Shown here: positions 14,600-35,867 of the stretch, in pieces
How positions within the stretch are numbered: position 1 is the first letter of the stretch
Layout of the letters: every line of letters begins with the position of its first letter
NCBI GenBank assembly: GCA_000002445.1
Contig: CP000071.1
Span: 1,184,001 to 1,248,000 of the forward strand
Length of the DNA stretch: 64,000 nt
DNA from: Trypanosoma brucei
Taxonomy: Eukaryota
Reading direction: 5' to 3'
Program-made: the position numbers and the translations under genes
The notes under the pieces: model-generated
Seen by the model: the letters and a program-made list of their open reading frames with translations, nothing else
What the model was told of the DNA's origin: nothing
Database searches by the model: none

Positions 14600-14705
14600 G
14601 AACAAAGAAAACAAAGGAAGCCAAAGGAAGACAAAAGAGGAGAAAGGAATCCGACACGTGAGAGAGAACAACAGTGGACGCAGACAGACGAAAGAAAAAC
14701 ACAGA
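14600..14705 (-). promoter_or_regulatory. Polypyrimidine tract on the coding (minus) strand. It is the likely trans-splicing signal for FLA1 and the polyadenylation guide for the upstream zinc-finger gene.
   Basis: The plus strand is almost pure purine (acaaaggaagccaaaggaagacaaaagaggagaaaggaa...gaaagaaaaacacag), so the minus strand is a CT-rich tract about 190-300 nt upstream of the ATG at 14413. Copies lie at 24218-24323 and 33833-33938. Confidence 0.4.
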
Positions 14706-14783
14706 TGCATTGAAGCCACGCATTTAGGGTTGGGGAAACATATTCAGAGTTTGAAAGCCACGCTTCACTCCTTCGTATTTTGA

Positions 14784-15512: not shown

Positions 15513-15746
15513 TCAACTGCACGCGTATATACCCCCCACCCGTGCGGTTTTACAATGTTTCCGGGAGAAGAAATGAGGCTACCTTACCTTGGGATATTCA
15601 CCCACACAAACGGAAATTATCAACGATCCTACCTGCTTCGGGGTGGTTCTTCACATGCATCTGAACAAACCAACAACCAGTAGCAGCACAGCAACAATGT
15701 ACAACAAGTATACAATCACACCATCCCACTTACATAGATTCTCCTT

Positions 15747-16445
15747 TTAGTCTTCCTCATCCTCTTTCCCTTCGTAACACACCTCACTTTCCTCCACTTC
15801 CTCATCGCTACTTTCCGATTCAACACCCGAAAAACATTGCCGCCGCAGATTCAAAACCCCACGCGAGTAGTACGTTGCCATTCTTTCCACAGGAAGACTT
15901 AGGAAGTCCTGCACGCATGACGCTCTGTGCTCTTGCATGAATGCTATCACGGCCCACAGTTCAGCCATAGCCCAGATGTCACTACGGAGGGGACTCTTCT
16001 TTTCTGCTTCACCATCCTTTGCAGCGATCGCCACGTGGTCAGTCTTGCTATTATTGTTAGCATGTGACATAGCCCCAGCAAGACACATGTGCTCACCAAC
16101 GAACTTCACTAGCCTATAGTTATGATTGGGATGCACCGTAACGTTTCCAGTGTTGGGACATGGTAGCAATAGGATAGGGGTCTCCTCATCCGTTATGTCC
16201 TGCAGCAACACACCCGCTTGTCCAAGTAGTTGCCGAAGGTTCAGGGACGGTGCGGCAGAGGGCACCTGAGTTACCCTCCCATTAATGCGGATAACAAAGT
16301 GCGCCTCCTCATCGGTTCCACACTCCTTAGATCGGCCGCGCTTGCGAGTTCCCTTAACCACTTCTTGACCCGCCAATCGTGTCATGACCTCTACCAATAC
16401 CTTTAGTGATTGATCAACGGGGGAGAAAATCTTAGATAAGCACAT
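15747..16445 (-). CDS. Hypothetical protein of about 232 aa with an acidic Ser/Glu/Asp C-terminal tail. Unit copy 1.
   Basis: The track ORF starts at TTG (16460). The first ATG gives MCLSKIFSPVDQ... The tail reads ESESSDEEVEESEVCYEGKEDEED. It is conserved in all three units. Confidence 0.55.
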   Translation of the reverse strand: MCLSKIFSPVDQSLKVLVEVMTRLAGQEVVKGTRKRGRSKECGTDEEAHFVIRINGRVTQVPSAAPSLNLRQLLGQAGVLLQDITDEETPILLLPCPNTGNVTVHPNHNYRLVKFVGEHMCLAGAMSHANNNSKTDHVAIAAKDGEAEKKSPLRSDIWAMAELWAVIAFMQEHRASCVQDFLSLPVERMATYYSRGVLNLRRQCFSGVESESSDEEVEESEVCYEGKEDEED

Positions 16446-16840
16446 ATGGATGGCGCGCAACTGAAGTTGGGATGGCGGCTCGACTGATGCAACGTGACGA
16501 CCAATCTTATCCTAGTCAGAGTGACGTGGTGTAGGTATGGTGAGGCCACTGCAGTCGGAACGCTGAGAGTGTTCAGCACTAAAAACATTTCACGGGAGGA
16601 TCCCTAAACTGACACAGCAACTGTTCATATGTCCACTACACGATGAACCAGGGATACCATCGCGGAGGTGTAATTTAATCCACAGACACTGCGGGAGGTA
16701 TTGCTGGGGTTAGATCTCGAATAGTGCTACAGGCACTCAACAATTGCCGGACACAAAAGACTAATGGACACACACACCGCTTTCTTTGCCTAAAGTGCAG
16801 CCCTGGAAAGTTACAAATAAGGAATGACAGGTACCGTGAG

Positions 16841-18361: not shown

Positions 18362-19332
18362 TTTACGTATCGCTATGAGGTCCTTCCGTCCACATGACGA
18401 ATACAGCTACAAATGATCTTGCACTACAGCGGGTGGTATTAACGATAAGGTTACATCAGCTTCAGCACACTTTGCTTCTGCTTTTAACCCTAGACTTATC
18501 TAATCCCTGCCGCCCACGCAGTTGCATAATTAAATAGAAGATAATAAGGGAGAATGAAAATGAATGAAGATGGGAAAATACGGTGAAGGAACACAAAGGG
18601 CACTATAGCAGTATAGGAGCACGCCACAAGAAGATGTGCTCGGACAAGCGGATGGATCACCAACAAGATAGGGGACCTTCGGAGGGTTTCACAGTTGGAG
18701 TCAGCATGGACTCACCTCAAAGGAAGACAAATAAGGGAAAAGAATAGAAAAAATAAAATTACGTTCCCCTGTGGCACAACGACGGCAAGCGTCGGGGTAC
18801 CTGAAGCTGTACAGGCGTGCTCGCTGTAGCGACCGCACAGTCTTGTATTGTGCACTGCTTCACTGTAACATGATAGTTCATACCCCAATATATGTTGCCT
18901 ACAACCTTGTCCCCTACACACTCAGATGACACCGCACCAGTGGCATGCGGAACCGTAGTGGTAGGAGGCGGCAACCCAGGAACCTCCAGCAGCTGAAAAT
19001 ATAATTTTGATGGAGAGATCTCTAGATAGAGCCGGCGTCTATGTATAAACATGCCGGCTGCACTGAGGCCGGCGTAGGGTAACCCCAGAGCCGATGCCAA
19101 CAACAACAAAAAAAAGAAATAACGACCGATCAATAACGATAAGAATGATAATGGTGGAAATACATGTACATGTACGGGAGCACATGAATAACTAGTGAAT
19201 AGCGAAAATAGCGATCAGTTGAGTTACTGAGACCTTTCCACCCTGCTCTCACTCAGTTACTGCAAGCACGTGTTGCATGGGAGTGGAAGGACAGTAAGAC
19301 ATTGCGCATGTTTGTGTGATAGTCTAGGAAAT

Positions 19333-21585: not shown

Positions 21586-22257
21586 GCGCAATCGAGAAAT
21601 TACAGTGGGGTCACTAGCCTCTGCCTTACCTAACGCGAAAGGATCCAGTGTTCTGTTAACTTCCTCTAATTACCTGCCCTCAGAGAGAGGCCGGCTACAA
21701 TTCCTTATATGGCACCCCAGAAGCGCGGCACAAGAGTCGCGGGCAACGAAGACGCAAAAAAGAAGGAAAGGGATAGACAAAGAATAGGTACGCGAAGAGA
21801 CTTTTGGTCATTGGAACGCCAAAACTCGTATGTAATGTATACAGGTGACTGTTCACGCAGAACCTGCAAATGTTGCTTCCAACTCTACGGTCTCTTCTAA
21901 AACGATGCAGCTGCAAAATCAAAAGTGCCTTTTAAAACATATTGCGTAGCAAATTTTTTTTTCTTTGGGGGGGGGAGGTAGTGGAGGGAAAACATTTTAA
22001 ATGGGTATACCTATTCTATCACTTACGTAATCACACGCTTTTTCTTACTGTCATAAATACGTATTTTCTGCACAAAAAGATTTGTTTCCTCACCCAAAAT
22101 GAGCAAGGTGTAGCCATCACATGACGACCAGAAACGCACACCCACCCAACTCTAACCTCATGCGAAGTAGTCGCAGAGGTTGCCTCTCACTATTCCCCAC
22201 CGGCTGTCACCTCCATTACGTATCCATGAGTGACTCCGAAGTCACTTGCAGCTCCAA

Positions 22258-24030
22258 CTACTCCAGCGCCGGCAGTCGCACAAAAGTAGATCTTGCATTC
22301 GGTGGACTTGCTATGAGCAACCACAGCAGCATGATGGCAAGAAGGCCCAAGAGCACTGAGGAGGCGATTCCTGCAGCACGCAGGTCCTCATGCACCTGGA
22401 ACTGAAGCTCGTCTACACACAGAGATTCATTGAAGGAAATGTACTGACAATCATCCACACACTTCACCATGCAGAATGGTGATAGGTGATCCCACTCCTC
22501 TTGTCGTACCAATTCATCAAGAAACTTCCGTGTCCAGTTCCATGGAGACGAGAACAACCGCTTCTGTAGTTCTTGCTTGCTCCTACCAGGAGGCCCTTGG
22601 TAGTTGGTAATAAGGATGTTCTTGTCGAAGTTCTCTAGAGCTGTCAAGTTTGTCCACGTCGAAACATTTGTACCACCAGGCACGTCATTGTAACCTGGGG
22701 GGAGGAAAACAGCAAAAAAGTCATCTGTGCCGAAAGCGATCTCAACATCCCTCATAATCCACGAATACAGAGCATGCATAAGTTTTACATCATCAATTGG
22801 GAACGAAGAAGCGCGAAAGGCGGCAACAGCTGTGGGTCTCGGAGGTGAAGGGGGATCCGGATTGGGAGTAATCGGCGGCGGCGGCGGCGGCGGTGGTGGT
22901 GGTGGCGGTGGCGGTGGCGGCTGCACTGATGGTGATGGTGACGGCGATGCTGATGGGCTGGGAGAAGGTGATGGCGGCACCGAAGGCGTGGGAGGGGGCG
23001 TTGGTGGAGGCGTTGGCGTCGGTGTATAGCCTACATCACGAATGGCATACACGGCCGTTTCTGTTGTAGCATAATACTCTTTGTCATTCACCCTCAACAA
23101 TGAGACAATCCGATCATAGTCCCATTTCAACATTGACTGCGCACACCATTGGGATGCTGGAGATGGGCGTTCCACCTCTAGTGACATGATGTACCCCTCT
23201 CCATTGGGCTCACCGTAATAATATAGTTTATCCTCTGCTTGAGTCAGCATCAGAGCACTTTTGTAGTGCAGACACGTCACATCACCTATATCCTTACTTT
23301 TTCCAATATCAGACTCCCCAGTTTTGCTCAAATTAACCGCTGCAATCCATGAGGTGTTTTTTACGACATACATCATGTTCTTTTCTTTGCTTATTTGCAT
23401 CACACCAGGTTGGAAGCCAGCGACTAGTGTAGTTACCACTGTGTTATTAGCATCCAGTGGCACATAAAGGATCTGCGAATTGCCTGTGTCGGAAATGAAT
23501 AGATTCTGAGTCCCGTTCAATGTGAATGGGAGAATATCCTTCGGTTTGTTAAGGTCTTGTGGTCCATATCTGGTTACATTGCCCTCAGCATCTATTCGCC
23601 TAATACAGTTGTTATCCCTGTCTGCCACGTAAATATCATCGTTGACGCTTACAACTGAGGTGGGATTGTTGAATAGTGCATCTCCCTTGGGGCCGTCTTT
23701 ATTACCACGTTGCGTCAGACTGCCTGCAATTGTATATATGCCAGTTTTGTTTACGAGTCGCACGGTGGATCCACCACCTTCGATATCACATAAAAGTAAA
23801 GGAAAACGCTTCTTTTGGAAGAAACCACCAGACGCCTTGAAAAGTTTTCCCTTTGCACTTTCGCCATCCGCCTGCCCAACAGTACAAGTAGTACAACTGT
23901 TGAAGAGGTTCACAATCACCTTGGTGCCCACGGTTTGGTCTCCTATAACGGGACTCACAAAACCCAGCAGCAGCAACAACGCTGCCACGAGTGCGGCCAA
24001 TGCTTCCCGTGATTCAGTCCTGCCACCCAT
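22258..24030 (-). CDS. FLA2: Flagellum adhesion glycoprotein FLA2-like. 590 aa. It is the FLA1 paralogue with a 44-aa Pro-rich insertion between the propeller and the membrane-proximal domain. Unit copy 2.
   Basis: The ATG was verified. It shares the signal peptide and NHL repeats with the 546-aa protein. The extra stalk reads TPTPTPPPTPPPTPSVPPSPSPSPSASPSPSPSVQPPPPPPPPPPPPPPPPITPNPDPPSPP. The C-terminal TM is LLGLLAIMLLWLLIA. Confidence 0.75.
   Translation of the reverse strand: MGGRTESREALAALVAALLLLLGFVSPVIGDQTVGTKVIVNLFNSCTTCTVGQADGESAKGKLFKASGGFFQKKRFPLLLCDIEGGGSTVRLVNKTGIYTIAGSLTQRGNKDGPKGDALFNNPTSVVSVNDDIYVADRDNNCIRRIDAEGNVTRYGPQDLNKPKDILPFTLNGTQNLFISDTGNSQILYVPLDANNTVVTTLVAGFQPGVMQISKEKNMMYVVKNTSWIAAVNLSKTGESDIGKSKDIGDVTCLHYKSALMLTQAEDKLYYYGEPNGEGYIMSLEVERPSPASQWCAQSMLKWDYDRIVSLLRVNDKEYYATTETAVYAIRDVGYTPTPTPPPTPPPTPSVPPSPSPSPSASPSPSPSVQPPPPPPPPPPPPPPPPITPNPDPPSPPRPTAVAAFRASSFPIDDVKLMHALYSWIMRDVEIAFGTDDFFAVFLPPGYNDVPGGTNVSTWTNLTALENFDKNILITNYQGPPGRSKQELQKRLFSSPWNWTRKFLDELVRQEEWDHLSPFCMVKCVDDCQYISFNESLCVDELQFQVHEDLRAAGIASSVLLGLLAIMLLWLLIASPPNARSTFVRLPALE
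22874..22918. repeat. GGN trinucleotide repeat, (GGC/GGT)15, encoding the poly-Pro run of FLA2 on the minus strand.
   Basis: The sequence reads ggcggcggcggcggcggtggtggtggtggcggtggcggtggcggc. An identical copy lies at 32492-32536. It is absent from the 546-aa paralogue. Confidence 0.85.
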
Positions 24031-24217
24031 TCCTGTTGCTCCACACTGTGATTCTATCAGTCAGTCGCTATATGTATATATATATATATATGTATATACC
24101 CCACGGATCTACCGTTGGGAAACAAACCTCAACCACAAAAGCGACCTATTAGCTCTGCTCAGTGAACTCACAACTCCCTTTAGTTGTCTTGTGATGATAT
24201 TATTATTCACACATCAG

Positions 24218-24323
24218 AACAAAGGAAAACAAAGGAAGCCAAAGGAAGACAAAAGAGGAGAAAGGAATCCGACACGTGAGAGAGAACAACAGTGGACGCA
24301 GACAGACGAAAGAAAAACACAGA
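24218..24323 (-). promoter_or_regulatory. Polypyrimidine tract, the trans-splice signal upstream of FLA2 (copy 2).
   Basis: This is the same purine-rich plus-strand block as at 14600-14705, shifted by 9618 bp. Confidence 0.4.
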
Positions 24324-24401
24324 TGCATTGAAGCCACGCATTTAGGGTTGGGGAAACATATTCAGAGTTTGAAAGCCACGCTTCACTCCTTCGTATTTTG
24401 A

Positions 24402-25130
24402 CTAAGGCAACGCAGACCCGCCACCCGCCGGTCCCTTACCAATGTGGAGGAAATTGCAGTACTTCCCACGCCTGCAGCCCTCCCGAGTGAGGAAGAAAGT
24501 ACATACCCTGCCATATGTTGCATTTCCCACGTGGCGCTCATTTCGACGGATCTGTGAGAGGCGGTAATCCTCAGAAGAGGATGCTGCACTGGTTGGGAGC
24601 AGTGGGGAACCTGCAGGGGATGGCAGTGGTGTAGCCATGTTCTGTTGATGAGCAGAGTTTCGACCACCCGCCACAACCCCTATTCCCTGTGACGGAGGGG
24701 CATGTGGTAGTGATGAGGATGCGGTACCCCCCGCACATCCGTAAGGCGGTGTGGTGCCAGTAGCGCTGTTGTGTGGCAGGGGGCACTCCCTCATACGTCC
24801 TTCGGCATTAGCGTCCCGCGGACGACCTGAGGCTACTTGGAGTTCTATAGAGAAGGGGTCGGGGCAGTTAACGCCACAGTGTCCGTTTATGGCTGAATAG
24901 AATTCCATAAGTGCCTGATGCGCTACGTGTGTCGGTGGGCGCAGCGAGAGGACGTTAGGTGTAGCAACGGACAACACTTTCTCCGATGATAGCGGTTGGT
25001 ACGGCGAGTTCTGAATCTTGCGCACGAGGCACACTGCCGATGGGGCTGCATGCTCCACAATGTAGTTCACCATCGCTCTCGTTGTGAGTTGCTGGGTAGT
25101 TGACGTTGCTTCCGCAGACGAGATGGTCAT
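24402..25130 (-). CDS. CCCH zinc-finger protein, 242 aa, unit copy 2. Identical to copy 1.
   Basis: The protein is identical to that of 14784..15512. Confidence 0.65.
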   Translation of the reverse strand: MTISSAEATSTTQQLTTRAMVNYIVEHAAPSAVCLVRKIQNSPYQPLSSEKVLSVATPNVLSLRPPTHVAHQALMEFYSAINGHCGVNCPDPFSIELQVASGRPRDANAEGRMRECPLPHNSATGTTPPYGCAGGTASSSLPHAPPSQGIGVVAGGRNSAHQQNMATPLPSPAGSPLLPTSAASSSEDYRLSQIRRNERHVGNATYGRVCTFFLTREGCRRGKYCNFLHIGKGPAGGGSALP

Positions 25131-25364
25131 TCAACTGCACGCGTATATACCCCCCACCCGTGCGGTTTTACAATGTTTCCGGGAGAAGAAATGAGGCTAC
25201 CTTACCTTGGGATATTCACCCACACAAACGGAAATTATCAACGATCCTACCTGCTTCGGGGTGGTTCTTCACATGCATCTGAACAAACCAACAACCAGTA
25301 GCAGCACAGCAACAATGTACAACAAGTATACAATCACACCATCCCTCTTACATAGATTCTCCTT

Positions 25365-26063
25365 TTAGTCTTCCTCATCCTCTTTCCCTTCGTAACACAC
25401 CTCACTTTCCTCCACTTCCTCATCGCTACTTTCCGATTCAACACCCGAAAAACATTGCCGCCGCAGATTCAAAACCCCACGCGAGTAGTACGTTGCCATT
25501 CTTTCCACAGGAAGACTTAGGAAGTCCTGCACGCATGACGCTCTGTGCTCTTGCATGAATGCTATCACGGCCCACAGTTCAGCCATAGCCCAGATGTCAC
25601 TACGGAGGGGACTCTTCTTTTCTGCTTCACCATCCTTTGCAGCGATCGCCACGTGGTCAGTCTTGCTATTATTGTTAGCATGTGACATAGCCCCAGCAAG
25701 ACACATGTGCTCACCAACGAACTTCACTAGCCTATAGTTATGATTGGGATGCACCGTAACGTTTCCAGTGTTGGGACATGGTAGCAATAGGATAGGGGTC
25801 TCCTCATCCGTTATGTCCTGCAGCAACACACCCGCTTGTCCAAGTAGTTGCCGAAGGTTCAGGGACGGTGCGGCAGAGGGCACCTGAGTTACCCTCCCAT
25901 TAATGCGGATAACAAAGTGCGCCTCCTCATCGGTTCCACACTCCTTAGATCGGCCGCGCTTGCGAGTTCCCTTAACCACTTCTTGACCCGCCAATCGTGT
26001 CATGACCTCTACCAATACCTTTAGTGATTGATCAACGGGGGAGAAAATCTTAGATAAGCACAT
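25365..26063 (-). CDS. Hypothetical acidic-tailed protein, about 232 aa, unit copy 2.
   Basis: The protein is identical to copy 1. The ATG at 26063-26061 was verified, and the track start at 26078 is a TTG. Confidence 0.55.
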   Translation of the reverse strand: MCLSKIFSPVDQSLKVLVEVMTRLAGQEVVKGTRKRGRSKECGTDEEAHFVIRINGRVTQVPSAAPSLNLRQLLGQAGVLLQDITDEETPILLLPCPNTGNVTVHPNHNYRLVKFVGEHMCLAGAMSHANNNSKTDHVAIAAKDGEAEKKSPLRSDIWAMAELWAVIAFMQEHRASCVQDFLSLPVERMATYYSRGVLNLRRQCFSGVESESSDEEVEESEVCYEGKEDEED

Positions 26064-26458
26064 ATGGATGGCGCGCAACTGAAGTTGGGATGGCGGCTCG
26101 ACTGATGCAACGTGACGACCAATCTTATCCTAGTCAGAGTGACGTGGTGTAGGTATGGTGAGGCCACTGCAGTCGGAACGCTGAGAGTGTTCAGCACTAA
26201 AAACATTTCACGGGAGGATCCCTAAACTGACACAGCAACTGTTCATATGTCCACTACACGATGAACCAGGGATACCATCGCGGAGGTGTAATTTAATCCA
26301 CAGACACTGCGGGAGGTATTGCTGGGGTTAGATCTCGAATAGTGCTACAGGCACTCAACAATTGCCGGACACAAAAGACTAATGGACACACACACCGCTT
26401 TCTTTGCCTAAAGTGCAGCCCTGGAAAGTTACAAATAAGGAATGACAGGTACCGTGAG

Positions 26459-27979
26459 TTAACCGGTGTCGTTGGTCGACACAACCATTAGTTCCCTCAG
26501 GCGCTCTCTATATTCCTGTGCTACAACCCCATCCAGAGCAACTGTTATTCCGGCTGTGTTGCCACACTTCTGCTGCTGTTCTGCAAGCAGGATGCTGTAA
26601 ACACTCTGCAATTCAGGAAGAGAACCCGCCGCCCGTAGACGCGCCACGTCTCGGTACGAGCGAAACATTCCTGCGGTACGTGCTTCACACACCACGCGTC
26701 TGCAAATATTTGGCAGAGCATCCAGTTCCCGCCCCCAGAACCGCGCGTCTGACCCAGCAGCGGCCACATTCCGAAAGAACTCCAAACCCGTCAGTCGCTC
26801 GATTTCTACCACAGGCACCTGGTAAGCTGTGAGGGGCCGCTCCACGGCAATCGGTTCGTTCGGCATTAGGAAGGCAGCAGCTTCATGTGCCCCGTCCGCT
26901 CGCTCACCTAATATAACTTTGAAGAGGTGTGTGGGGACCGCAACGTCGCGCTTGCCCACAAGCTCATAGCAGACAATCTTCCGCAAGTGCACTGCTGCCT
27001 TGTCATTTCCACAGTGGCAGTGTTCTCCAGAAGCCAACACTCCGCTACTCACAGGTTTTACTGGAGACGGACATTGCGATGGTTCCGCCCACCGCCACGT
27101 GCGCACATCACCATCCACGAGCCGCGGGTGGAAGACAGGTCCCGTCACTACCCACAATCCCCTCTCATAATACCGCCGCAACTTCCGTGTGAGGTTTTCC
27201 AACCGCAGCCAGTCGACAGCATTCATTGTCATGTCCTGTGGTACAGTGTTCGCATTCATGTTAAAGGTCTGAGCCAACTCAACAGTAGAGCTCTTGTGAA
27301 ACTGTGCGGCAGCAAGGTGACCTCGGCTGAGGCCTCGTGAGTGCTGTCCCCTGCCACCCCCAATATAGTCACCGGGCTGCACGCGGAACAACTGAGGCAC
27401 CGTCATGTCCGCAAAGAACCTCATTCCATCTCGCTGGGCTTCCGCTGCGGAAGCGTTTACTAAGTCGTTATCAGCCGTGACCACTGAATCAGCAGCAGTG
27501 GTCCTGCCGGGGATGTACTCCAACACCCAATTAGGGATACGACGCTCATAATTCAGACTAGAAACAAAGCCTTTGTAGTAGCGCAGGTGATCGTCGGACG
27601 GAAGCCCCTTGCTTGTAAGTCTTAGCACGAAAGGAGTAGTTTCCCCACCATCGTCGTTACACCTCTCCTTGGGGTATGCGGGCTGTGGGCATTGCACGTG
27701 TAACACCTCCGGACTTGTGCGCTCAGTCATCTGTTGATACGGAACAGGCGATGGATGGCATTTGTCCACACCAAACCAACCACCACGCTCCACAACCATT
27801 CCTATCGCGCCTCCCGCCAGCGCCGTACCAAGGAAGGCAAAGGCACGTCCCACGGAGGAAGCAGAAACCGCCATCGTATGCTTCTTCCTGCAGTTGATGC
27901 CACAAAGTGTAATAGAAGGAGTAAGTGGGATGACAGTGCACGTATCAGTGGGCATGAGCCGTACGGTGATGCGATGCAT
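26459..27979 (-). CDS. EndoG: Endonuclease G-like nuclease, unit copy 2.
   Basis: It differs from copy 1 by one residue (ELMVVSTNDTG versus ELMAVSTNDTG). Confidence 0.85.
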   Translation of the reverse strand: MHRITVRLMPTDTCTVIPLTPSITLCGINCRKKHTMAVSASSVGRAFAFLGTALAGGAIGMVVERGGWFGVDKCHPSPVPYQQMTERTSPEVLHVQCPQPAYPKERCNDDGGETTPFVLRLTSKGLPSDDHLRYYKGFVSSLNYERRIPNWVLEYIPGRTTAADSVVTADNDLVNASAAEAQRDGMRFFADMTVPQLFRVQPGDYIGGGRGQHSRGLSRGHLAAAQFHKSSTVELAQTFNMNANTVPQDMTMNAVDWLRLENLTRKLRRYYERGLWVVTGPVFHPRLVDGDVRTWRWAEPSQCPSPVKPVSSGVLASGEHCHCGNDKAAVHLRKIVCYELVGKRDVAVPTHLFKVILGERADGAHEAAAFLMPNEPIAVERPLTAYQVPVVEIERLTGLEFFRNVAAAGSDARFWGRELDALPNICRRVVCEARTAGMFRSYRDVARLRAAGSLPELQSVYSILLAEQQQKCGNTAGITVALDGVVAQEYRERLRELMVVSTNDTG

Positions 27980-28950
27980 TTTACGTATCGCTATGAGGTC
28001 CTTCCGTCCACATGACGAATACAGCTACAAATGATCTTGCACTACAGCGGGTGGTATTAACGATAAGGTTACATCAGCTTCAGCACACTTTGCTTCTGCT
28101 TTTAACCCTAGACTTATCTAATCCCTGCCGCCCACGCAGTTGCATAATTAAATAGAAGATAATAAGGGAGAATGAAAATGAATGAAGATGGGAAAATACG
28201 GTGAAGGAACACAAAGGGCACTATAGCAGTATAGGAGCACGCCACAAGAAGATGTGCTCGGACAAGCGGATGGATCACCAACAAGATAGGGGACCTTCGG
28301 AGGGTTTCACAGTTGGAGTCAGCATGGACTCACCTCAAAGGAAGACAAATAAGGGAAAAGAATAGAAAAAATAAAATTACGTTCCCCTGTGGCACAACGA
28401 CGGCAAGCGTCGGGGTACCTGAAGCTGTACAGGCGTGCTCGCTGTAGCGACCGCGCAGTCTTGTATTGTGCACTGCTTCACTGTAACATGATAGTTCATA
28501 CCCCAATATATGTTGCCTACAACCTTGTCCCCTACACACTCAGATGACACCGCACCAGTGGCATGCGGAACCGTAGTGGTAGGAGGCGGCAACCCAGGAA
28601 CCTCCAGCAGCTGAAAATATAATTTTGATGGAGAGATCTCTAGATAGAGCCGGCGTCTATGTATAAACATGCCGGCTGCACTGAGGCCGGCGTAGGGTAA
28701 CCCCAGAGCCGATGCCAACAACAACAAAAAAAAGAAATAACGACCGATCAATAACGATAAGAATGATAATGGTGGAAATACATGTACATGTACGGGAGCA
28801 CATGAATAACTAGTGAATAGCGAAAATAGCGATCAGTTGAGTTACTGAGACCTTTCCACCCTGCTCTCACTCAGTTACTGCAAGCACGTGTTGCATGGGA
28901 GTGGAAGGACAGTAAGACATTGCGCATGTTTGTGTGATAGTCTAGGAAAT

Positions 28951-31203
28951 TCACTGCTCGACCCTTTCTTTGTTGCCGTAGGCAGATGCGTAATCTTGCT
29001 CATCCTCATCCAGTGTACTCACGAATTTCGGACGAGCGGGTGCGACTACGGCGGCAAGGCGTCTGCGTTTCGATGTGAACACGACAGCTAACACGATGAG
29101 GACGGCTACGATAAGTGCACACACTACCGCGATTATGATTAGGCACACGCGACCGCACTTTGGCGCCTTCTCTGTGGTGGGTCTGACGGTATCGTTGTTC
29201 AGGTGGTCGTTCAAGTCTTGCCAGTCAATCTCACCGACGCATTCCGACACATCGAACGTATAGTTTCCAGGAATGAATACTTCGTACAGACTCATCTCAA
29301 CGTAGGGTGGCTGGTAAAAAAGCGATACCGTGCGGTTCGTTATCGTGGACTGGCATACTCCAGTTACATTGCTATCAAGTGCCGTGGCAATGGTGGTTCG
29401 GCTATGGTCACCAACCTCTTCCCTACGTGCCATGCTTCTCCCGGTGCTACGTTCTTCACATTTCTTTATTTGATTCATCACCTCGTCGTGTATGTACCAG
29501 CGTACTTCCTGTTCCTCATCCGGAGTCAGTGATGAGAAGTTGAACGGGGGATTGGAGAAGGTTACATCGACGTGAGTGTCCGAGCTCCGCAAGTATTTGA
29601 TGAATGAGTGGGCAGTCTCAGTGAGGTTCGCATCTGACAGCAAGTCGTGGGTCACGGTGTTGTTGAACGAGGCTGGCATCAGTAGCTTCACTGTTGTGAT
29701 ATTTTCAGCGTCACTGCTCTCAGCCTTAAGGGGCATGTCCGCGTAGATGAGCGTGAAATTGAGTACCTCACCCGCCTCCTTTGCGAGCTTCCGACGGAGA
29801 GCATCAAGACTCAGGCGATTGCAATATGGGACCATTGTGCTGTCCATGTACACCTGTTCGTCAGTAAGGTTGTAGTACTCATCCGCAGCCTCCTTTGTGT
29901 GTTCATAGTTACTCTCGTGCAAGGCCTGTTCGGTTTTCTCGTCATCAAAGTCCGGCTGTTGCACACCGGCGGTGAAATTCGTTAGCCATGTTGTGGAGTC
30001 CACATGTACGGAAGAAGAGGCAACAATACTTTCGGTGGTGCCGAGCGCAGTGTTGATGTCCTCAGTGAGGTTCCCCACAATCCACTCCATGATGTCTTTA
30101 TCAGGGTATCCAACTGGTAACGGGCGCCCGGGGAAGAGACCCTGCACGTACACTGGTGGAAGTGTCACAGAACGCAGGACACTTTTCTTTTCCGATGTAA
30201 CATACATTTCGTACTCCGTCACCACGAGCAATCGGGTTATCTCACAAAGAAGCGTGTCATCTCCCTCAGTATTGGGAAGACACGAGTTCGTGCTTCCTCC
30301 GGCGAATCGTTTCGTCGTAAGTTTATTACCGTCGGTCGAAACGCGGTGTAACTCATTTTGTGTTGCCGCGAGTAGATCACCAGACCGTGTGCTGGTAATG
30401 TCCACATATTCACCATCCACCTCTGCGATCTTGTGGCCCTGCAGGTCGAACCAGCAGATGGTGCCCTGCTTCGCGGGGCCGCGAGCAACAACAAAGATGC
30501 CCTGCTGCGTGGCGGCAATGCCGATGGGACCATAGATACTGCAGTTTGCACTCAGAGCCACGTGGCTGTGACATGCGATTGGGTCACCGTCGCTTCCCAC
30601 TTCACACGTCCATACAGTATTTGTGTTTTGCTCTGTCAGATACAGGTGGTTCCCGTACAAAGCTACGCCTGTCAGCGAGCCATTGCGGACTACGTCATGA
30701 GAGAAGACACCGCTGTCCTTGAAATACTTCACCTCACCCATACTCTCAACAAAGTAAACAAATGTGGAGCCACCAACTGTCCACTGCACGCAGGCGCGCG
30801 GTTTGTCAACTTTGACACTACGCGACCCGCTTTTCTGATCCTCGTCTGTCTCCCATGCCGTGATTGTAGTGGTCTCACGGTTCTTGCGCGAGAAGGCACG
30901 GAAGCGGTCAACTGTCCCCAAAAGGATCTCGTCACTATTCCTGCCTCTGCACATAGCGTGGGGTGACGATAATTCCGACATGCCAGGGAACCCGTCCTTA
31001 TCACCAATATGACCGTACTTGCCAGCGACGGTGGTCACATGGCGCTTCAGTTCAATGGGAGCGGCTCCACTTCTCACTACAATCGTTGCGACGGTGGCCA
31101 CGAGCAAAAGCATCTGGGATACGTAACCTAAGTGCACGGTTCCTACTACTTCCCTCACATTCATTGTTTCCACCTCACAGTTGGTTTGTTTCCACAACGG
31201 CAT
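28951..31203 (-). CDS. FLA1BP: FLA1BP-like NHL-repeat membrane glycoprotein, unit copy 2.
   Basis: The protein is identical to copy 1. Confidence 0.7.
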   Translation of the reverse strand: MPLWKQTNCEVETMNVREVVGTVHLGYVSQMLLLVATVATIVVRSGAAPIELKRHVTTVAGKYGHIGDKDGFPGMSELSSPHAMCRGRNSDEILLGTVDRFRAFSRKNRETTTITAWETDEDQKSGSRSVKVDKPRACVQWTVGGSTFVYFVESMGEVKYFKDSGVFSHDVVRNGSLTGVALYGNHLYLTEQNTNTVWTCEVGSDGDPIACHSHVALSANCSIYGPIGIAATQQGIFVVARGPAKQGTICWFDLQGHKIAEVDGEYVDITSTRSGDLLAATQNELHRVSTDGNKLTTKRFAGGSTNSCLPNTEGDDTLLCEITRLLVVTEYEMYVTSEKKSVLRSVTLPPVYVQGLFPGRPLPVGYPDKDIMEWIVGNLTEDINTALGTTESIVASSSVHVDSTTWLTNFTAGVQQPDFDDEKTEQALHESNYEHTKEAADEYYNLTDEQVYMDSTMVPYCNRLSLDALRRKLAKEAGEVLNFTLIYADMPLKAESSDAENITTVKLLMPASFNNTVTHDLLSDANLTETAHSFIKYLRSSDTHVDVTFSNPPFNFSSLTPDEEQEVRWYIHDEVMNQIKKCEERSTGRSMARREEVGDHSRTTIATALDSNVTGVCQSTITNRTVSLFYQPPYVEMSLYEVFIPGNYTFDVSECVGEIDWQDLNDHLNNDTVRPTTEKAPKCGRVCLIIIAVVCALIVAVLIVLAVVFTSKRRRLAAVVAPARPKFVSTLDEDEQDYASAYGNKERVEQ

Positions 31204-31875
31204 GCGCAATCGAGAAATTACAGTGGGGTCACTAGCCTCTGCCTTACCTAACGCGAAAGGATCCAGTGTTCTGTTAACTTCCTCTAATTACCTGCCCTCA
31301 GAGAGAGGCCGGCTACAATTCCTTATATGGCACCCCAGAAGCGCGGCACAAGAGTCGCGGGCAACGAAGACGCAAAAAAGAAGGAAAGGGATAGACAAAG
31401 AATAGGTACGCGAAGAGACTTTTGGTCATTGGAACGCCAAAACTCGTATGTAATGTATACAGGTGACTGTTCACGCAGAACCTGCAAATGTTGCTTCCAA
31501 CTCTACGGTCTCTTCTAAAACGATGCAGCTGCAAAATCAAAAGTGCCTTTTAAAACATATTGCGTAGCAAATTTTTTTTTCTTTGGGGGGGGGAGGTAGT
31601 GGAGGGAAAACATTTTAAATGGGTATACCTATTCTATCACTTACGTAATCACACGCTTTTTCTTACTGTCATAAATACGTATTTTCTGCACAAAAAGATT
31701 TGTTTCCTCACCCAAAATGAGCAAGGTGTAGCCATCACATGACGACCAGAAACGCACACCCACCCAACTCTAACCTCATGCGAAGTAGTCGCAGAGGTTG
31801 CCTCTCACTATTCCCCACCGGCTGTCACCTCCATTACGTATCCATGAGTGACTCCGAAGTCACTTGCAGCTCCAA

Positions 31876-33648
31876 CTACTCCAGCGCCGGCAGTCGCACA
31901 AAAGTAGATCTTGCATTCGGTGGACTTGCTATGAGCAACCACAGCAGCATGATGGCAAGAAGGCCCAAGAGCACTGAGGAGGCGATTCCTGCAGCACGCA
32001 GGTCCTCATGCACCTGGAACTGAAGCTCGTCTACACACAGAGATTCATTGAAGGAAATGTACTGACAATCATCCACACACTTCACCATGCAGAATGGTGA
32101 TAGGTGATCCCACTCCTCTTGTCGTACCAATTCATCAAGAAACTTCCGTGTCCAGTTCCATGGAGACGAGAACAACCGCTTCTGTAGTTCTTGCTTGCTC
32201 CTACCAGGAGGCCCTTGGTAGTTGGTAATAAGGATGTTCTTGTCGAAGTTCTCTAGAGCTGTCAAGTTTGTCCACGTCGAAACATTTGTACCACCAGGCA
32301 CGTCATTGTAACCTGGGGGGAGGAAAACAGCAAAAAAGTCATCTGTGCCGAAAGCGATCTCAACATCCCTCATAATCCACGAATACAGAGCATGCATAAG
32401 TTTTACATCATCAATTGGGAACGAAGAAGCGCGAAAGGCGGCAACAGCTGTGGGTCTCGGAGGTGAAGGGGGATCCGGATTGGGAGTAATCGGCGGCGGC
32501 GGCGGCGGCGGTGGTGGTGGTGGCGGTGGCGGTGGCGGCTGCACTGATGGTGATGGTGACGGCGATGCTGATGGGCTGGGAGAAGGTGATGGCGGCACCG
32601 AAGGCGTGGGAGGGGGCGTTGGTGGAGGCGTTGGCGTCGGTGTATAGCCTACATCACGAATGGCATACACGGCCGTTTCTGTTGTAGCATAATACTCTTT
32701 GTCATTCACCCTCAACAATGAGACAATCCGATCATAGTCCCATTTCAACATTGACTGCGCACACCATTGGGATGCTGGAGATGGGCGTTCCACCTCTAGT
32801 GACATGATGTACCCCTCTCCATTGGGCTCACCGTAATAATATAGTTTATCCTCTGCTTGAGTCAGCATCAGAGCACTTTTGTAGTGCAGACACGTCACAT
32901 CACCTATATCCTTACTTTTTCCAATATCAGACTCCCCAGTTTTGCTCAAATTAACCGCTGCAATCCATGAGGTGTTTTTTACGACATACATCATGTTCTT
33001 TTCTTTGCTTATTTGCATCACACCAGGTTGGAAGCCAGCGACTAGTGTAGTTACCACTGTGTTATTAGCATCCAGTGGCACATAAAGGATCTGCGAATTG
33101 CCTGTGTCGGAAATGAATAGATTCTGAGTCCCGTTCAATGTGAATGGGAGAATATCCTTCGGTTTGTTAAGGTCTTGTGGTCCATATCTGGTTACATTGC
33201 CCTCAGCATCTATTCGCCTAATACAGTTGTTATCCCTGTCTGCCACGTAAATATCATCGTTGACGCTTACAACTGAGGTGGGATTGTTGAATAGTGCATC
33301 TCCCTTGGGGCCGTCTTTATTACCACGTTGCGTCAGACTGCCTGCAATTGTATATATGCCAGTTTTGTTTACGAGTCGCACGGTGGATCCACCACCTCCA
33401 ACATCACATAAAAGTAAAGGAAAGCTTTTGTTCTTAAAGAACCCACCCACCGCCTTGAATAAGCGACCAGTACCGTTTATGCCATCCGCCTGCCCACTAC
33501 TACAGTTGATACAACTGTTGAAGAGGTTCACAATCACCTTGGTGCCCACGGTTTGGTCTCCTATAACGGGACTCACAAAACCCAGCAGCAGCAACAACGC
33601 TGCCACGAGTGCGGCCAATGCTTCCCGTGATTCAGTCCTGCCACCCAT
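31876..33648 (-). CDS. FLA2: FLA2-like 590-aa glycoprotein, unit copy 3. It is mosaic: residues about 47-95 are of FLA1 type.
   Basis: The body of the protein, including the Pro-rich insert, is identical to 22258..24030. The segment NSCINCSSGQADGINGTGRLFKAVGGFFKNKSFPLLLCDVGGGGSTVRLV is identical to the 546-aa paralogue and differs from copy 2 (NSCTTCTVGQADGESAKGKLFKASGGFFQKKRFPLLLCDIEGGGSTVRLV). Confidence 0.75.
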   Translation of the reverse strand: MGGRTESREALAALVAALLLLLGFVSPVIGDQTVGTKVIVNLFNSCINCSSGQADGINGTGRLFKAVGGFFKNKSFPLLLCDVGGGGSTVRLVNKTGIYTIAGSLTQRGNKDGPKGDALFNNPTSVVSVNDDIYVADRDNNCIRRIDAEGNVTRYGPQDLNKPKDILPFTLNGTQNLFISDTGNSQILYVPLDANNTVVTTLVAGFQPGVMQISKEKNMMYVVKNTSWIAAVNLSKTGESDIGKSKDIGDVTCLHYKSALMLTQAEDKLYYYGEPNGEGYIMSLEVERPSPASQWCAQSMLKWDYDRIVSLLRVNDKEYYATTETAVYAIRDVGYTPTPTPPPTPPPTPSVPPSPSPSPSASPSPSPSVQPPPPPPPPPPPPPPPPITPNPDPPSPPRPTAVAAFRASSFPIDDVKLMHALYSWIMRDVEIAFGTDDFFAVFLPPGYNDVPGGTNVSTWTNLTALENFDKNILITNYQGPPGRSKQELQKRLFSSPWNWTRKFLDELVRQEEWDHLSPFCMVKCVDDCQYISFNESLCVDELQFQVHEDLRAAGIASSVLLGLLAIMLLWLLIASPPNARSTFVRLPALE

Positions 33649-33832
33649 TCCTGTTGCTCCACACTGTGATTCTATCAGTCAGTCGCTATATGTATATATA
33701 TATATATATATATACCCCACGGATCTACCGTTGGGAAACAAACCTCAACCACAAAAGCGACCCATTAGCTCTGCTCAGTGAACTCACAACTCCCTTTAGT
33801 TGTCTTGTGATGATATTATTATTCACACATCA

Positions 33833-33938
33833 GAACAAAGAAAACAAAGGAAGCCAAAGGAAGACAAAAGAGGAGAAAGGAATCCGACACGTGAGAGAGA
33901 ACAACAGTGGACGCAGACAGACGAAAGAAAAACACAGA
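33833..33938 (-). promoter_or_regulatory. Polypyrimidine tract, the trans-splice signal upstream of FLA2 (copy 3).
   Basis: This is the same block as at 14600-14705 and 24218-24323. Confidence 0.4.
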
Positions 33939-34016
33939 TGCATTGAAGCCACGCATTTAGGGTTGGGGAAACATATTCAGAGTTTGAAAGCCACGCTTCA
34001 CTCCTTCGTATTTTGA

Positions 34017-34745
34017 CTAAGGCAACGCAGACCCGCCACCCGCCGGTCCCTTACCAATGTGGAGGAAATTGCAGTACTTCCCACGCCTGCAGCCCTCCCG
34101 AGTGAGGAAGAAAGTACATACCCTGCCATATGTTGCATTTCCCACGTGGCGCTCATTTCGACGGATCTGTGAGAGGCGGTAATCCTCAGAAGAGGATGCT
34201 GCACTGGTTGGGAGCAGTGGGGAACCTGCAGGGGATGGCAGTGGTGTAGCCATGTTCTGTTGATGAGCAGAGTTTCGACCACCCGCCACAACCCCTATTC
34301 CCTGTGACGGAGGGGCATGTGGTAGTGATGAGGATGCGGTACCCCCCGCACATCCGTAAGGCGGTGTGGTGCCAGTAGCGCTGTTGTGTGGCAGGGGGCA
34401 CTCCCTCATACGTCCTTCGGCATTAGCGTCCCGCGGACGACCTGAGGCTACTTGGAGTTCTATAGAGAAGGGGTCGGGGCAGTTAACGCCACAGTGTCCG
34501 TTTATGGCTGAATAGAATTCCATAAGTGCCTGATGCGCTACGTGTGTCGGTGGGCGCAGCGAGAGGACGTTAGGTGTAGCAACGGACAACACTTTCTCCG
34601 ATGATAGCGGTTGGTACGGCGAGTTCTGAATCTTGCGCACGAGGCACACTGCCGATGGGGCTGCATGCTCCACAATGTAGTTCACCATCGCTCTCGTTGT
34701 GAGTTGCTGGGTAGTTGACGTTGCTTCCGCAGACGAGATGGTCAT
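34017..34745 (-). CDS. CCCH zinc-finger protein, unit copy 3. Identical.
   Basis: The protein is identical to copies 1 and 2. Confidence 0.65.
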   Translation of the reverse strand: MTISSAEATSTTQQLTTRAMVNYIVEHAAPSAVCLVRKIQNSPYQPLSSEKVLSVATPNVLSLRPPTHVAHQALMEFYSAINGHCGVNCPDPFSIELQVASGRPRDANAEGRMRECPLPHNSATGTTPPYGCAGGTASSSLPHAPPSQGIGVVAGGRNSAHQQNMATPLPSPAGSPLLPTSAASSSEDYRLSQIRRNERHVGNATYGRVCTFFLTREGCRRGKYCNFLHIGKGPAGGGSALP

Positions 34746-34979
34746 TCAACTGCACGCGTATATACCCCCCACCCGTGCGGTTTTACAATGTTTCCGGGAG
34801 AAGAAATGAGGCTACCTTACCTTGGGATATTCACCCACACAAACGGAAATTATCAACGATCCTACCTGCTTCGGGGTGGTTCTTCACATGCATCTGAACA
34901 AACCAACAACCAGTAGCAGCACAGCAACAATGTACAACAAGTATACAATCACACCATCCCTCTTACATAGATTCTCCTT

Positions 34980-35675
34980 TTAGTCTTCCTCATCCTCTTT
35001 CCCTTCGTAACACACCTCACTTTCCTCCACTTCCTCATCGCTACTTTCCAATTCAACACCCTTTATGCAGTGCCTCATCATTGCTGCAGTTGCTTTTCCT
35101 TTGTAAATTTCGACTTCCTCTGGTTTTAGCATAAGGAAATCTCGAGCATACGATATTTTGTTGCTTTGTAGGAATACCATTAAGGAACCCAAAGTACTGT
35201 CGGCCAGTTTTTTGCTTTGAAAGACACGTTTCTTGTGCAGTTTGTTACCCTCAGCAGTAAATGTTATGGCGTCTATCTCATGGTCGTTAGCAGGGAAAAA
35301 ATCTCCGGCAGGGCACACGTGCTCACCAACGAACTTCACTAGCCTATAGTTATGATTGGGATGCACCGTAACGTTTCCAGTGTTGGGACATGGTAGCAAT
35401 AGGATAGGGGTCTCCTCATCCGTTATGTCCTGCAGCAACACACCCGCTTGTCCAAGTAGTTGCCGAAGGTTCAGGGACGGTGCGGCAGAGGGCACCTGAG
35501 TTACCCTCCCATTAATGCGGATAACAAAGTGCGCCTCCTCATCGGTTCCACACTCCTTAGATCGGCCGCGCTTGCGAGTTCCCTTAACCACTTCTTGACC
35601 CGCCAATCGTGTCATGACCTCTACCAATACCTTTAGTGATTGATCAACGGGGGAGAAAATCTTAGATAAGCACAT
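34980..35675 (-). CDS. Divergent, mosaic copy of the acidic-tailed small protein, at the right boundary of the array.
   Basis: The N-terminal 130 aa and the acidic tail are identical to copies 1 and 2. An internal segment of about 260 bp (35050-35310) is replaced (CPAGDFFPANDHEIDAITFTAEGNKLHKKRVF...). The ATG at 35675-35673 was verified, and the track start is a TTG. Confidence 0.5.
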   Translation of the reverse strand: MCLSKIFSPVDQSLKVLVEVMTRLAGQEVVKGTRKRGRSKECGTDEEAHFVIRINGRVTQVPSAAPSLNLRQLLGQAGVLLQDITDEETPILLLPCPNTGNVTVHPNHNYRLVKFVGEHVCPAGDFFPANDHEIDAITFTAEGNKLHKKRVFQSKKLADSTLGSLMVFLQSNKISYARDFLMLKPEEVEIYKGKATAAMMRHCIKGVELESSDEEVEESEVCYEGKEDEED

Positions 35676-35867
35676 ATGGATGGCGCGAAGCCGGTGTTGC
35701 AAGAGCTAGGCCATTGATAGGGATACACTTTCCCATCTTTATTGGGTTGACAAGACTCTATGCGGGTGATTTGCTTTGTTTGCTGGTATCTTACGTTAAC
35801 ATGCTGTAGATTGGCCTGCTAGCAGGCACAAAATGTGAGTCTTCCCTTTTGCATTTACCCTACTGCG

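What the first reader, a model, noticed from the sequence alone, without database searches (positions are those of the whole stretch)
33350..33515. Gene-conversion tract in the third FLA2 copy: a 49-residue N-terminal patch of FLA1 type
The copy-3 590-aa protein is identical to copy 2 except for residues about 47-95. There it is identical to the 546-aa FLA1-like paralogue and carries 15 or more substitutions relative to copy 2. At nucleotide level, 33400-33520 is identical to 14170-14290 but not to 23785-23900. This is a textbook short-tract interparalogue conversion. It falls in the first blade of the ectodomain propeller, so it may alter the interaction surface with the binding partner (FLA1BP-like).
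Basis: seen in the sequence. Interest (0 to 1): 0.65.

Follow-up and report, generated by a model that had tools for sequence, protein, structure and literature searches.

The report
FLA1-type patch in second FLA2 copy
In the Trypanosoma brucei TREU927 reference, one of the two bloodstream-type flagellum-attachment genes (FLA2 copy Tb927.8.4110) carries the first 100 codons of its insect-stage paralogue FLA1. This looks like an ordinary, strain-specific recombination between tandem paralogues; it is real in the sequence but not yet confirmed by independent reads.

Summary
Copy 3 (31876-33648, minus strand, Tb927.8.4110) differs from copy 2 (Tb927.8.4060) at exactly 35 nucleotides, giving 15 residue changes. 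All 35 lie in CDS nt 140-251 (window 33509-33398, residues 47-84). At every one, copy 3 matches FLA1 (12773-14413).

Only one breakpoint can be mapped. It lies in a 48-nt stretch identical in all three copies (33350-33397, CDS nt 252-299). Upstream, the three 9.6-kb array units are about 99.95% identical, so the 5' end of any tract cannot be seen.

Copy 2 holds the native FLA2 state. The one FLA2 gene of T. b. gambiense DAL972 and both FLA2 genes of a T. b. equiperdum assembly carry the copy-2 patch, including the gene at copy 3's position. The copy-2 patch is also as diverged from FLA1 as the rest of the gene. The FLA1-type patch is therefore derived and seen only in TREU927.

Best explanation: a recent FLA1-to-FLA2 gene conversion, one case of the concerted evolution already described for T. 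brucei tandem arrays. It adds three N-glycosylation sequons. An assembly chimera is not excluded (about 0.2). Interest is low to moderate.

The parts
33398..33509 (-). FLA1-type patch in copy 3 (Tb927.8.4110): CDS nt 140-251, codons 47-84. It holds 35 diagnostic sites, all equal to FLA1 and different from copy 2.
33350..33397 (-). 48-nt stretch identical in all three copies (CDS nt 252-299). This is the only mappable breakpoint interval, where copy 3 switches from FLA1-type to FLA2-type.
33350..33709 (-). Longest ungapped run in which copy 3 equals FLA1 (360 nt, matching 14115-14474). It is bounded upstream by a copy-3-private 2-nt TA-repeat indel; a copy-3-private SNP lies at 33763. This is the upper bound of a tract if those private variants predate the event.
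31876..33648 (-). Copy 3 CDS, 590 aa (Tb927.8.4110, called FLA3 or FLA2-2): a hybrid with FLA1 residues 1-100 and FLA2 from residue 101.
28456..33397 (-). Run of perfect identity between unit 3 and unit 2 (4942 nt). It covers the FLA2 body, the FLA2-type 3' flank and the downstream FLA1BP gene.
22258..24030 (-). Copy 2 CDS, 590 aa (Tb927.8.4060, FLA2 or FLA2-1). It carries the native FLA2-type patch at 23780-23891.
12773..14413 (-). FLA1 CDS, 546 aa, exactly XP_847232.1 of T. b. brucei TREU927. It is the donor-type sequence; the donor segment is 14163-14274, and FLA1 keeps its own patch.
10971..35687 (-). Tandem array of about 9617-bp units, each holding [242-aa CCCH protein, FLA, FLA1BP 750 aa, endonuclease G 506 aa, 237-aa protein]. 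Units are about 99.95% identical outside the FLA core. Unit 1 lacks FLA1BP.

Best explanation
The window is the FLA locus of T. brucei brucei TREU927 chromosome 8. It holds three tandem units of about 9.6 kb that are kept nearly identical by ongoing homogenisation. The exception is a diverged core running from FLA codon 47 through the 3' UTR, which distinguishes procyclic-type FLA1 from bloodstream-type FLA2.

In Tb927.8.4110 a homologous-recombination event copied FLA1 sequence into the 5' end of a FLA2 gene. It most likely began in the shared upstream sequence and resolved in the 48-bp identity stretch at CDS nt 252-299. This was most likely a non-reciprocal (ectopic) gene conversion from Tb927.8.4010, two units (19.2 kb) away, and it moved the homogenised/diverged boundary 112-160 nt further into the gene.

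Shown: the mosaic pattern, the single breakpoint interval, the derived state of copy 3, and concerted evolution of the flanks.

Inferred: that the event was a conversion, that it was recent, and its consequences. The predicted product has an FLA1 N-terminus (residues 1-100, with three extra N-glycosylation sequons at N48, N58 and N73) on an FLA2 body. The gene keeps a FLA2-type 3' flank, so it is presumably expressed like FLA2.
For: - Locus identity. FLA1 here is exactly XP_847232.1. The neighbouring proteins are exact TREU927 entries AAZ13162-13179. The gene names come from PMC4827413 Table 1.
- Mosaic. 35 of 35 sites have c3=c1 and not c2, followed by several hundred informative sites with c3=c2 and not c1, without interleaving.
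- Identity runs. c3=c1 over 33350-33709 and c3=c2 over 28456-33397.
- Polarity. DAL972 FLA2 and both T. b. equiperdum FLA2 copies carry the copy-2 patch at all 35 sites. This includes the positional orthologue of copy 3, in a locus collinear with window 41245-18234.
- Age of the copy-2 patch. It differs from FLA1 by 30.7% nt and 39.5% aa, against 33.6% and 40.1% for the rest of the gene. dS is 1.03 in the patch and 1.06 in the C-terminal region.
- Donor lineage. Copy 3 shares the G at 33450 (Val67) with TREU927 FLA1; DAL972 FLA1 and an independently deposited T. brucei FLA1 (AAC47392.1) have Met67 there.
- FLA1 keeps its own patch, so the exchange is non-reciprocal within this haplotype.
- Concerted evolution of the flanks. 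Strain-specific variants are shared by all paralogous units of a genome: a 10-nt indel, TA-repeat length, several SNPs and CDS nt 261. Units differ by about 0.05% within TREU927 but by 1.6-1.8% from the other subspecies.
- T. congolense FLA paralogues are also mosaics with homogenised ends.
- Mosaics and concerted evolution are reported as common in T. brucei tandem arrays (PMC2854126).
- Sequons.
Against: - The mosaic is seen only in the TREU927 reference and in none of the three other FLA2 genes examined.
- The patch is 100% identical to the same genome's FLA1. A misassembly would produce the same result.
- The array (three units of 9.6 kb at about 99.95% identity) is hard to assemble. The DAL972 assembly orders the FLA genes differently, with FLA1 first.
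- No independent TREU927 reads, cDNA or FLA2 protein records could be reached with these tools.
- The 5' end of the tract cannot be seen, so conversion cannot be told apart from a single crossover.
Confidence: 0.65

Rival explanations
1. Assembly or consensus chimera in the TREU927 reference. Reads from the FLA1 unit were recruited to the 5' end of copy 3, because about 1.5 kb upstream of the patch is identical in all units. The consensus then switches to FLA2 reads inside the 48-nt identity stretch.
For: - The mosaic is absent from DAL972 and from both T. b. equiperdum FLA2 copies.
- The patch is identical to the same genome's FLA1, including the allele at 33450 that DAL972 FLA1 lacks.
- Units are about 99.95% identical, and the identical stretches exceed Sanger read length: 1553 nt from the patch (33509) to the array-boundary sequence (35062).
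- DAL972 and TREU927 disagree on FLA gene order, and both other assemblies have gaps in the array.
Against: - The last FLA1-type site and the first FLA2-type site are only 49 nt apart. Any real read crossing them would expose a conflict, and a chimeric consensus would need reads that end exactly inside the stretch.
- Copy-3-private variants (the indel at about 33709/33710 and the SNP at 33763) lie 200-250 nt from the patch, within one Sanger read. This suggests unit-3-specific reads cover the region.
- A clean switch within an identity stretch is what homologous recombination produces.
Confidence: 0.2
2. A reciprocal crossover rather than a conversion. It would be an exchange within CDS nt 252-299 between two structurally different haplotypes: one with FLA1 as the first gene of the array (as assembled in DAL972) and one with FLA2 first (as in T. 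b. equiperdum). Alternatively it was an unequal sister-chromatid exchange followed by further rearrangement.
For: - In DAL972 the gene directly downstream of the 415-aa/231-aa/242-aa genes is FLA1. That is the position occupied by the hybrid in TREU927.
- One allelic-position crossover between such haplotypes would give exactly the TREU927 order: hybrid, FLA2, FLA1.
Against: - The DAL972 arrangement sits next to a 100-N gap. It depends on joins across repeats longer than its reads, so it may be a misassembly.
- A simple unequal crossover from a two-unit FLA2-FLA1 array would put the hybrid in the middle, not first. This is an inference from the gene order.
- Copy-3-private variants just upstream are not shared with any FLA1 unit.
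Confidence: 0.12
3. Copy 3 is ancestral and copy 2 is the altered gene, having received its patch from an unseen donor or mutated rapidly.
For: From the window alone, a three-sequence comparison cannot give polarity.
Against: - Three FLA2 genes in two other genomes share the copy-2 patch at all 35 sites.
- The copy-2 patch retains residues shared with T. congolense (T50-V51, S67, R75, I83).
- Its divergence from FLA1 equals that of the rest of the gene.
Confidence: 0.02

Closest known systems
Sequence mosaics and concerted evolution in T. brucei tandem gene arrays (Jackson 2007, PMC1855330; Jackson et al. 2010, PMC2854126)
   Same: Tandem paralogues in one polycistron are homogenised within a genome. 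Strain- or subspecies-specific mosaic copies arise by recombination between array members. Here, strain-specific variants are shared by all three units, and one copy is a mosaic.
   Different: The FLA array is not mentioned in the main text of Jackson 2007. The Jackson 2010 analysis used arrays with more than 3 gene copies. Here the homogenisation stops at a functionally diverged, stage-specific core, and the event shifts that boundary by 112-160 nt.
FLA1/FLA2 (GP72 family) flagellum-adhesion glycoproteins of T. brucei: Tb927.8.4010, Tb927.8.4060, Tb927.8.4110
   Same: Copy 1 is exactly FLA1. Copies 2 and 3 are the 590-aa FLA2-type genes with the proline-rich insert, an NHL propeller and a C-terminal TM helix. 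They sit next to FLA1BP.
   Different: In the literature I could search, Tb927.8.4110 is treated as a near-identical second FLA2 (called FLA3 or FLA2-2). None of those papers notes that its first 100 residues are FLA1.
Segmental gene conversion that generates mosaic VSG genes in T. brucei
   Same: Homologous recombination between diverged paralogues, resolved in short identity stretches, produces chimeric surface-protein genes (background in PMC2854126).
   Different: This is a single event in a core-chromosome housekeeping array. It is not a subtelomeric archive or expression-site process, and there is no evidence of recurrent diversification.

Membership tests
FLA1/GP72 flagellum-adhesion glycoprotein family | Sequence homology to FLA1/GP72 orthologues over the full length | tested here: met
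   Copy 3 against FLA1 TREU927: E = 6e-239, 62% identity. Orthologues were found in T. congolense, T. vivax, T. rangeli, T. grayi and others (alignment).
FLA1/GP72 flagellum-adhesion glycoprotein family | Extracellular NHL-repeat beta-propeller | tested here: met
   Pfam NHL PF01436 at residues 120-144, 28.8 bits against a cut-off of 20. The AF2 model has pLDDT 70-90 over residues 80-330. The top PDB matches are NHL six-blade propellers: NHLRC2 6g7w, Brat 1q7f and Pizza6.
FLA1/GP72 flagellum-adhesion glycoprotein family | N-terminal signal sequence and a single C-terminal transmembrane helix | tested here: inconclusive
   Helices are predicted at residues 6-23 and 549-574 and the sequence there is hydrophobic. 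No dedicated signal-peptide or TM predictor was available.
FLA2 subtype (bloodstream-stage paralogue) | 44-residue proline-rich insert and a FLA2-type 3' flank | tested here: met
   Copy 3 is identical to copy 2 from 33397 down to 28456. This covers the insert, the stop codon, the 3' flank and FLA1BP. The insert is described in PMC4152294.
FLA2 subtype (bloodstream-stage paralogue) | FLA2-type N-terminal segment (residues 47-84), as in other strains | tested here: not met
   Copy 3 has the FLA1 state at all 15 residues and 35 nucleotides. DAL972 and T. b. equiperdum FLA2 have the copy-2 state.
Interparalogue (ectopic) gene-conversion tract | A cluster of differences from the sister copy, all matching a paralogous donor | tested here: met
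   35 of 35 sites within 112 nt; P about 1e-94 and 2e-17.
Interparalogue (ectopic) gene-conversion tract | Derived state, absent from orthologous copies | tested here: met
   Three FLA2 genes in two other Trypanozoon genomes lack it.
Interparalogue (ectopic) gene-conversion tract | Two breakpoints, with recipient-type sequence on both sides | tested here: inconclusive
   The 3' breakpoint is mapped to 33350-33397. On the 5' side all copies are identical. Only copy-3-private variants at about 33709/33710 and 33763 hint at a 5' limit.
Interparalogue (ectopic) gene-conversion tract | Non-reciprocal: the donor is unchanged | tested here: met
   FLA1 keeps its FLA1-type patch and equals the deposited FLA1 protein. 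The homologous chromosome is not visible.
Interparalogue (ectopic) gene-conversion tract | The junction is supported by independent reads, so it is not an assembly artefact | not testable with these tools
   No TREU927 reads or alternative assemblies could be reached. Exact-protein look-ups for TREU927 genes returned nothing.

The most novel reading that the evidence does not exclude
The hybrid is not a neutral accident but a functional third FLA isoform: an FLA2 body and FLA2-type regulation with an FLA1-type, triply N-glycosylated first blade. In this reading it is retained in some T. b. brucei lineages because it tunes FLA-FLABP pairing. One example is the tsetse proventricular stage, where FLA2 and FLA1BP are reported to be co-expressed (Naguleswaran 2021, as cited in PMC12831198).
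Probability: 0.06. Interest if true: 0.5.

Novelty: new member of a known kind. Interest (0 to 1): 0.27.

Why it matters
- Gene annotation. Tb927.8.4060 and Tb927.8.4110 are usually treated as interchangeable FLA2 genes. If the mosaic is real, TREU927 encodes two different bloodstream-type FLA proteins. One has an FLA1 N-terminus and three extra predicted N-glycosylation sites (N48, N58, N73) in the first propeller blade.
- Reagent specificity. This matters for RNAi, for antibodies and for peptide assignment. For example, an FLA1 RNAi fragment spanning nucleotides 1-311 (PMC12831198) is 100% identical to Tb927.8.4110 over nt 1-299.
- Evolution. The locus shows concerted evolution stopping at a selectively maintained, stage-specific core. 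Such a boundary can move through a 48-bp identity stretch.
- Outlook. This does not open a new question. It is one more instance of a documented process in T. brucei arrays, and it may still be a reference-assembly error.

Tried and rejected
- Protein database. Two searches, with full-length copy 3 and with the proline-free first 335 residues of copy 2, found FLA1 and orthologues but no T. brucei FLA2 entry. Exact look-up confirmed that copies 2 and 3 are not in the collection. No second-strain FLA2 proteins could be retrieved this way.
- Exact-protein genome look-ups for TREU927 genes (FLA1 tried twice, and the 415-aa gene) returned nothing. Cluster members from other strains were used as anchors instead.
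- The T. equiperdum OVI contig with the 242-aa gene is only 1599 bp (a collapsed repeat) and does not reach the FLA gene.
- The third unit and FLA1 of T. b. equiperdum could not be reached. That assembly has a 100-N gap after the second FLA1BP.
- Literature searches on the gene IDs, FLA2-1/FLA2-2, the FLA/NHL terms and tandem arrays found no description of this mosaic. The De Liz 2023 review is not held.
- A single unequal crossover from a two-unit array was considered and rejected, because it predicts the hybrid in the middle of the array rather than first.
- 'Copy 2 is the altered gene' was considered and rejected on the comparative data.
- tRNA and tandem-repeat scans of the window found nothing.
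Full report
**Identity of the locus.**
- The 546-aa ORF at 12773-14413 (minus strand) is exactly XP_847232.1, FLA1 of T. brucei brucei TREU927.
- Eight neighbouring ORFs are exact matches to TREU927 proteins AAZ13162-AAZ13179.
- The window is therefore the chromosome 8 FLA locus.
- By order and by PMC4827413 Table 1, copy 1 is Tb927.8.4010 (FLA1). Copy 2 (22258-24030) is Tb927.8.4060 (FLA2, FLA2-1). Copy 3 (31876-33648) is Tb927.8.4110 (called FLA3 or FLA2-2).
- The 750-aa ORFs at 19333-21591 and 28951-31209 are FLA1BP (Tb927.8.4050 and Tb927.8.4100).
- All genes lie on the minus strand. They sit in a tandem array of about 9617-bp units, each holding [242-aa CCCH protein, FLA, FLA1BP, endonuclease G, 237-aa protein].

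**The observation.**
- The copy 2 and copy 3 CDSs differ at exactly 35 nucleotides. All lie in CDS nt 140-251 (copy 3: 33509..33398). They give 15 amino-acid changes between residues 47 and 84.
- In a three-way alignment with flanks, all 35 sites have copy 3 = FLA1 and not copy 2.
- After a 48-nt stretch identical in all three copies (33350-33397, CDS nt 252-299), every informative site has copy 3 = copy 2 and not FLA1. This holds through the stop codon and the 3' flank.
- The ungapped identity runs are 33350-33709 (360 nt) for copy 3 = FLA1 and 28456-33397 (4942 nt) for copy 3 = copy 2.
- Units 2 and 3 otherwise differ by 2 SNPs in about 7.8 kb. Units 1 and 2 differ by about 7 positions in 9.2 kb. 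Thirty-five differences in 112 nt has P about 1e-94.

**Polarity.**
- From the window alone the pattern could mean that either copy 2 or copy 3 was altered. Two lines of evidence decide it.
- First, the copy-2 patch is as diverged from FLA1 as the rest of FLA2. The figures are 35/114 nt (30.7%) and 15/38 aa, against 449/1338 nt (33.6%) and 179/446 aa. Nei-Gojobori dS is 1.03 and dN 0.285 in the patch, against 1.06 and 0.25 in the C-terminal third.
- Second, I used cluster members of neighbouring proteins as anchors to fetch the locus from two other genomes. These were T. b. gambiense DAL972 (FN554971.1; L002, L003, L008, L009) and a T. b. equiperdum assembly (GCA_003543875.1, CM010679.1; L004, L005, L007, L010, L011).
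- The T. b. equiperdum contig is collinear with window 41245-18234 at 98.2-98.4% identity. Its order is 415-aa gene, 242-aa gene, FLA2 (588 aa), FLA1BP, EndoG, 232-aa gene, 242-aa gene, FLA2 (frameshifted), FLA1BP (frameshifted), then a gap. Its first FLA2 is therefore the positional orthologue of copy 3.
- Both of its FLA2 copies, and the single DAL972 FLA2, have the copy-2 state at all 35 sites.
- The FLA1-type patch of copy 3 is therefore derived and, so far, private to the TREU927 reference.
- Copy 3 also shares the G at 33450 (Val67) with TREU927 FLA1. DAL972 FLA1 and an independently deposited T. brucei FLA1 (AAC47392.1) have Met67 at that position.

**Context: concerted evolution with a protected core.**
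- In the 420 nt upstream of the ATG and the first 300 nt of the CDS, several variants are shared by all three TREU927 units. The same sites carry the alternative state in all four copies from the other two genomes.
- These variants are a 10-nt indel, an 18-nt difference in a TA repeat, five SNPs and CDS nt 261.
- Units are about 0.05% different within TREU927 but 1.6-1.8% different from the other subspecies.
- The array is thus homogenised faster than lineages diverge. The FLA core (codon 47 to the 3' UTR) stays about 33% diverged.
- The two T. congolense FLA paralogues show the same design. Their N-terminal 150 residues and C-terminal about 170 residues are at least 97% identical, and the centre is diverged.
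- Jackson et al. report that T. brucei tandem arrays frequently contain mosaics and evolve in concert (PMC2854126). The FLA array is not mentioned in the main text of Jackson 2007.

**Mechanism.**
- The simplest account is a non-reciprocal transfer from FLA1 into Tb927.8.4110. It would be anchored 5' in the shared upstream sequence and resolved 3' in the 48-bp identity stretch.
- FLA1 keeps its own patch.
- The minimum tract is 112 nt.
- If the copy-3-private TA-indel (about 33709/33710) and SNP (33763) predate the event, the maximum is 360 nt. Otherwise the 5' end cannot be determined.
- A single unequal crossover from a FLA2-FLA1 array would place the hybrid in the middle of the array. The hybrid is the first gene, so that model is disfavoured (an inference).
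- A crossover between structurally different haplotypes remains possible. The DAL972 assembly places FLA1 itself in the first position. That arrangement sits next to a 100-N gap and rests on joins across repeats longer than its reads.

**Assembly-artefact alternative.**
- I could not reach any independent TREU927 data. FLA2 proteins are absent from the protein collection, and TREU927 genes are not in the position index.
- For an artefact: the mosaic is unique to this reference. The patch is identical to the same genome's FLA1. The array is hard to assemble, and the assemblies disagree on its order.
- Against an artefact: the flanking diagnostic sites are only 49 nt apart. Unit-3-private variants lie within one Sanger read of the patch. 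The switch falls exactly in an identity stretch.
- I put the artefact at about 0.2.

**Consequences (inferred).**
- The FLA1-type patch brings three N-X-S/T sequons that copy 2 lacks: N48 (NCS), N58 (NGT) and N73 (NKS). Copy 3 thus has 13 sequons against 10 in copy 2.
- The AlphaFold model built from an 11-sequence alignment is confident only for the propeller (pLDDT 70-90 over residues 80-330). It matches NHL six-blade propellers.
- Residues 46-59 have pLDDT below 50.
- Residues 62-71 and 74-84 are predicted as the first two strands of the first four-stranded sheet.
- 'First blade' is therefore plausible but weakly supported.
- The 3' flank of copy 3 is identical to that of copy 2, so FLA2-like bloodstream expression is expected. 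This follows from established knowledge that 3' UTRs govern stage regulation in trypanosomes.
- De Liz et al. 2026 showed that a FLA2 clone 99.7% identical to Tb927.8.4060 can replace FLA1 and work with FLA1BP (PMC12831198). The FLA1/FLA2 differences, patch included, are therefore not critical for FLA1BP binding. Any effect on FLA2BP pairing is unknown.

**Verdict.**
- The interpretation as FLA1-to-FLA2 recombination is supported in polarity and location. The terms 'short tract' and 'conversion' go beyond what one mappable breakpoint allows, and the interface claim is untested.
- This is a new instance of a known process in a well-studied locus. It is useful for annotation and reagent design, and it needs a simple read-level check.

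Noticed in passing
window 34980-35702 vs 25365-26078 and 15747-16460: The gene at the array boundary (240 aa, Tb927.8.4130 by position) and the internal 237-aa genes form another mosaic pair. Their N-terminal 128 residues and last about 24 residues are near-identical. A block of about 90 residues (35062-35304) is strongly diverged. Both types are conserved in DAL972 and T. b. equiperdum, so this is a second protected diverged block inside the homogenised array.
   Followed up: partly
window 10971-12224 vs 18171-19425 and 27789-29043: Downstream of FLA1 the array ends in a fragment 99.6% identical to the last 93 nt of FLA1BP, the FLA1BP-EndoG spacer and the first 190 nt of EndoG. Unit 1 therefore lacks FLA1BP and has only a truncated EndoG start before the ABC1-kinase gene.
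   Followed up: partly
L002/L008/L009 (DAL972 FN554971.1) vs the window: The DAL972 assembly has only two FLA genes, in a different order. FLA1 comes first, directly after the 415/231/242-aa genes. FLA2-FLA1BP comes last, before ABC1. A 100-N gap lies between them. This is either real structural polymorphism or a misassembly of the repeat.
   Followed up: partly
window 33375 (copy 3) / 23757 (copy 2), CDS nt 274: In DAL972 and T. b. equiperdum, FLA2 has T here (Phe92) and DAL972 FLA1 has C (no T. b. equiperdum FLA1 was retrieved). In TREU927 both FLA2 copies have the FLA1-type C (Leu92). This could be a micro-conversion or a point mutation inside the 48-nt stretch that predates the copy-3 event.
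   Followed up: no
P0002 vs P0003 (T. congolense IL3000); L001: The two T. congolense FLA paralogues are at least 97% identical over the N-terminal 150 and C-terminal about 170 residues, and diverged only in the centre. This suggests independent partial homogenisation in that species. FLA is followed by a FLABP-sized 862-aa gene on L001.
   Followed up: partly
window 48000-64000: GC content drops from about 50% to 30-40% over the last 16 kb of the window. ORFs are sparse there: a 231-aa and a 627-aa ORF without Pfam hits. A cytidine/dCMP deaminase-domain ORF at 47381-48139 lies just before the drop.
   Followed up: no
L005 17144-18891 and 19556-21813 (T. b. equiperdum): The second FLA2 and the second FLA1BP of the T. 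b. equiperdum assembly are each split by a frameshift. These are likely uncorrected long-read indels in the repeat rather than true pseudogenes. That assembly's proline-rich tract is also shorter and different.
   Followed up: no
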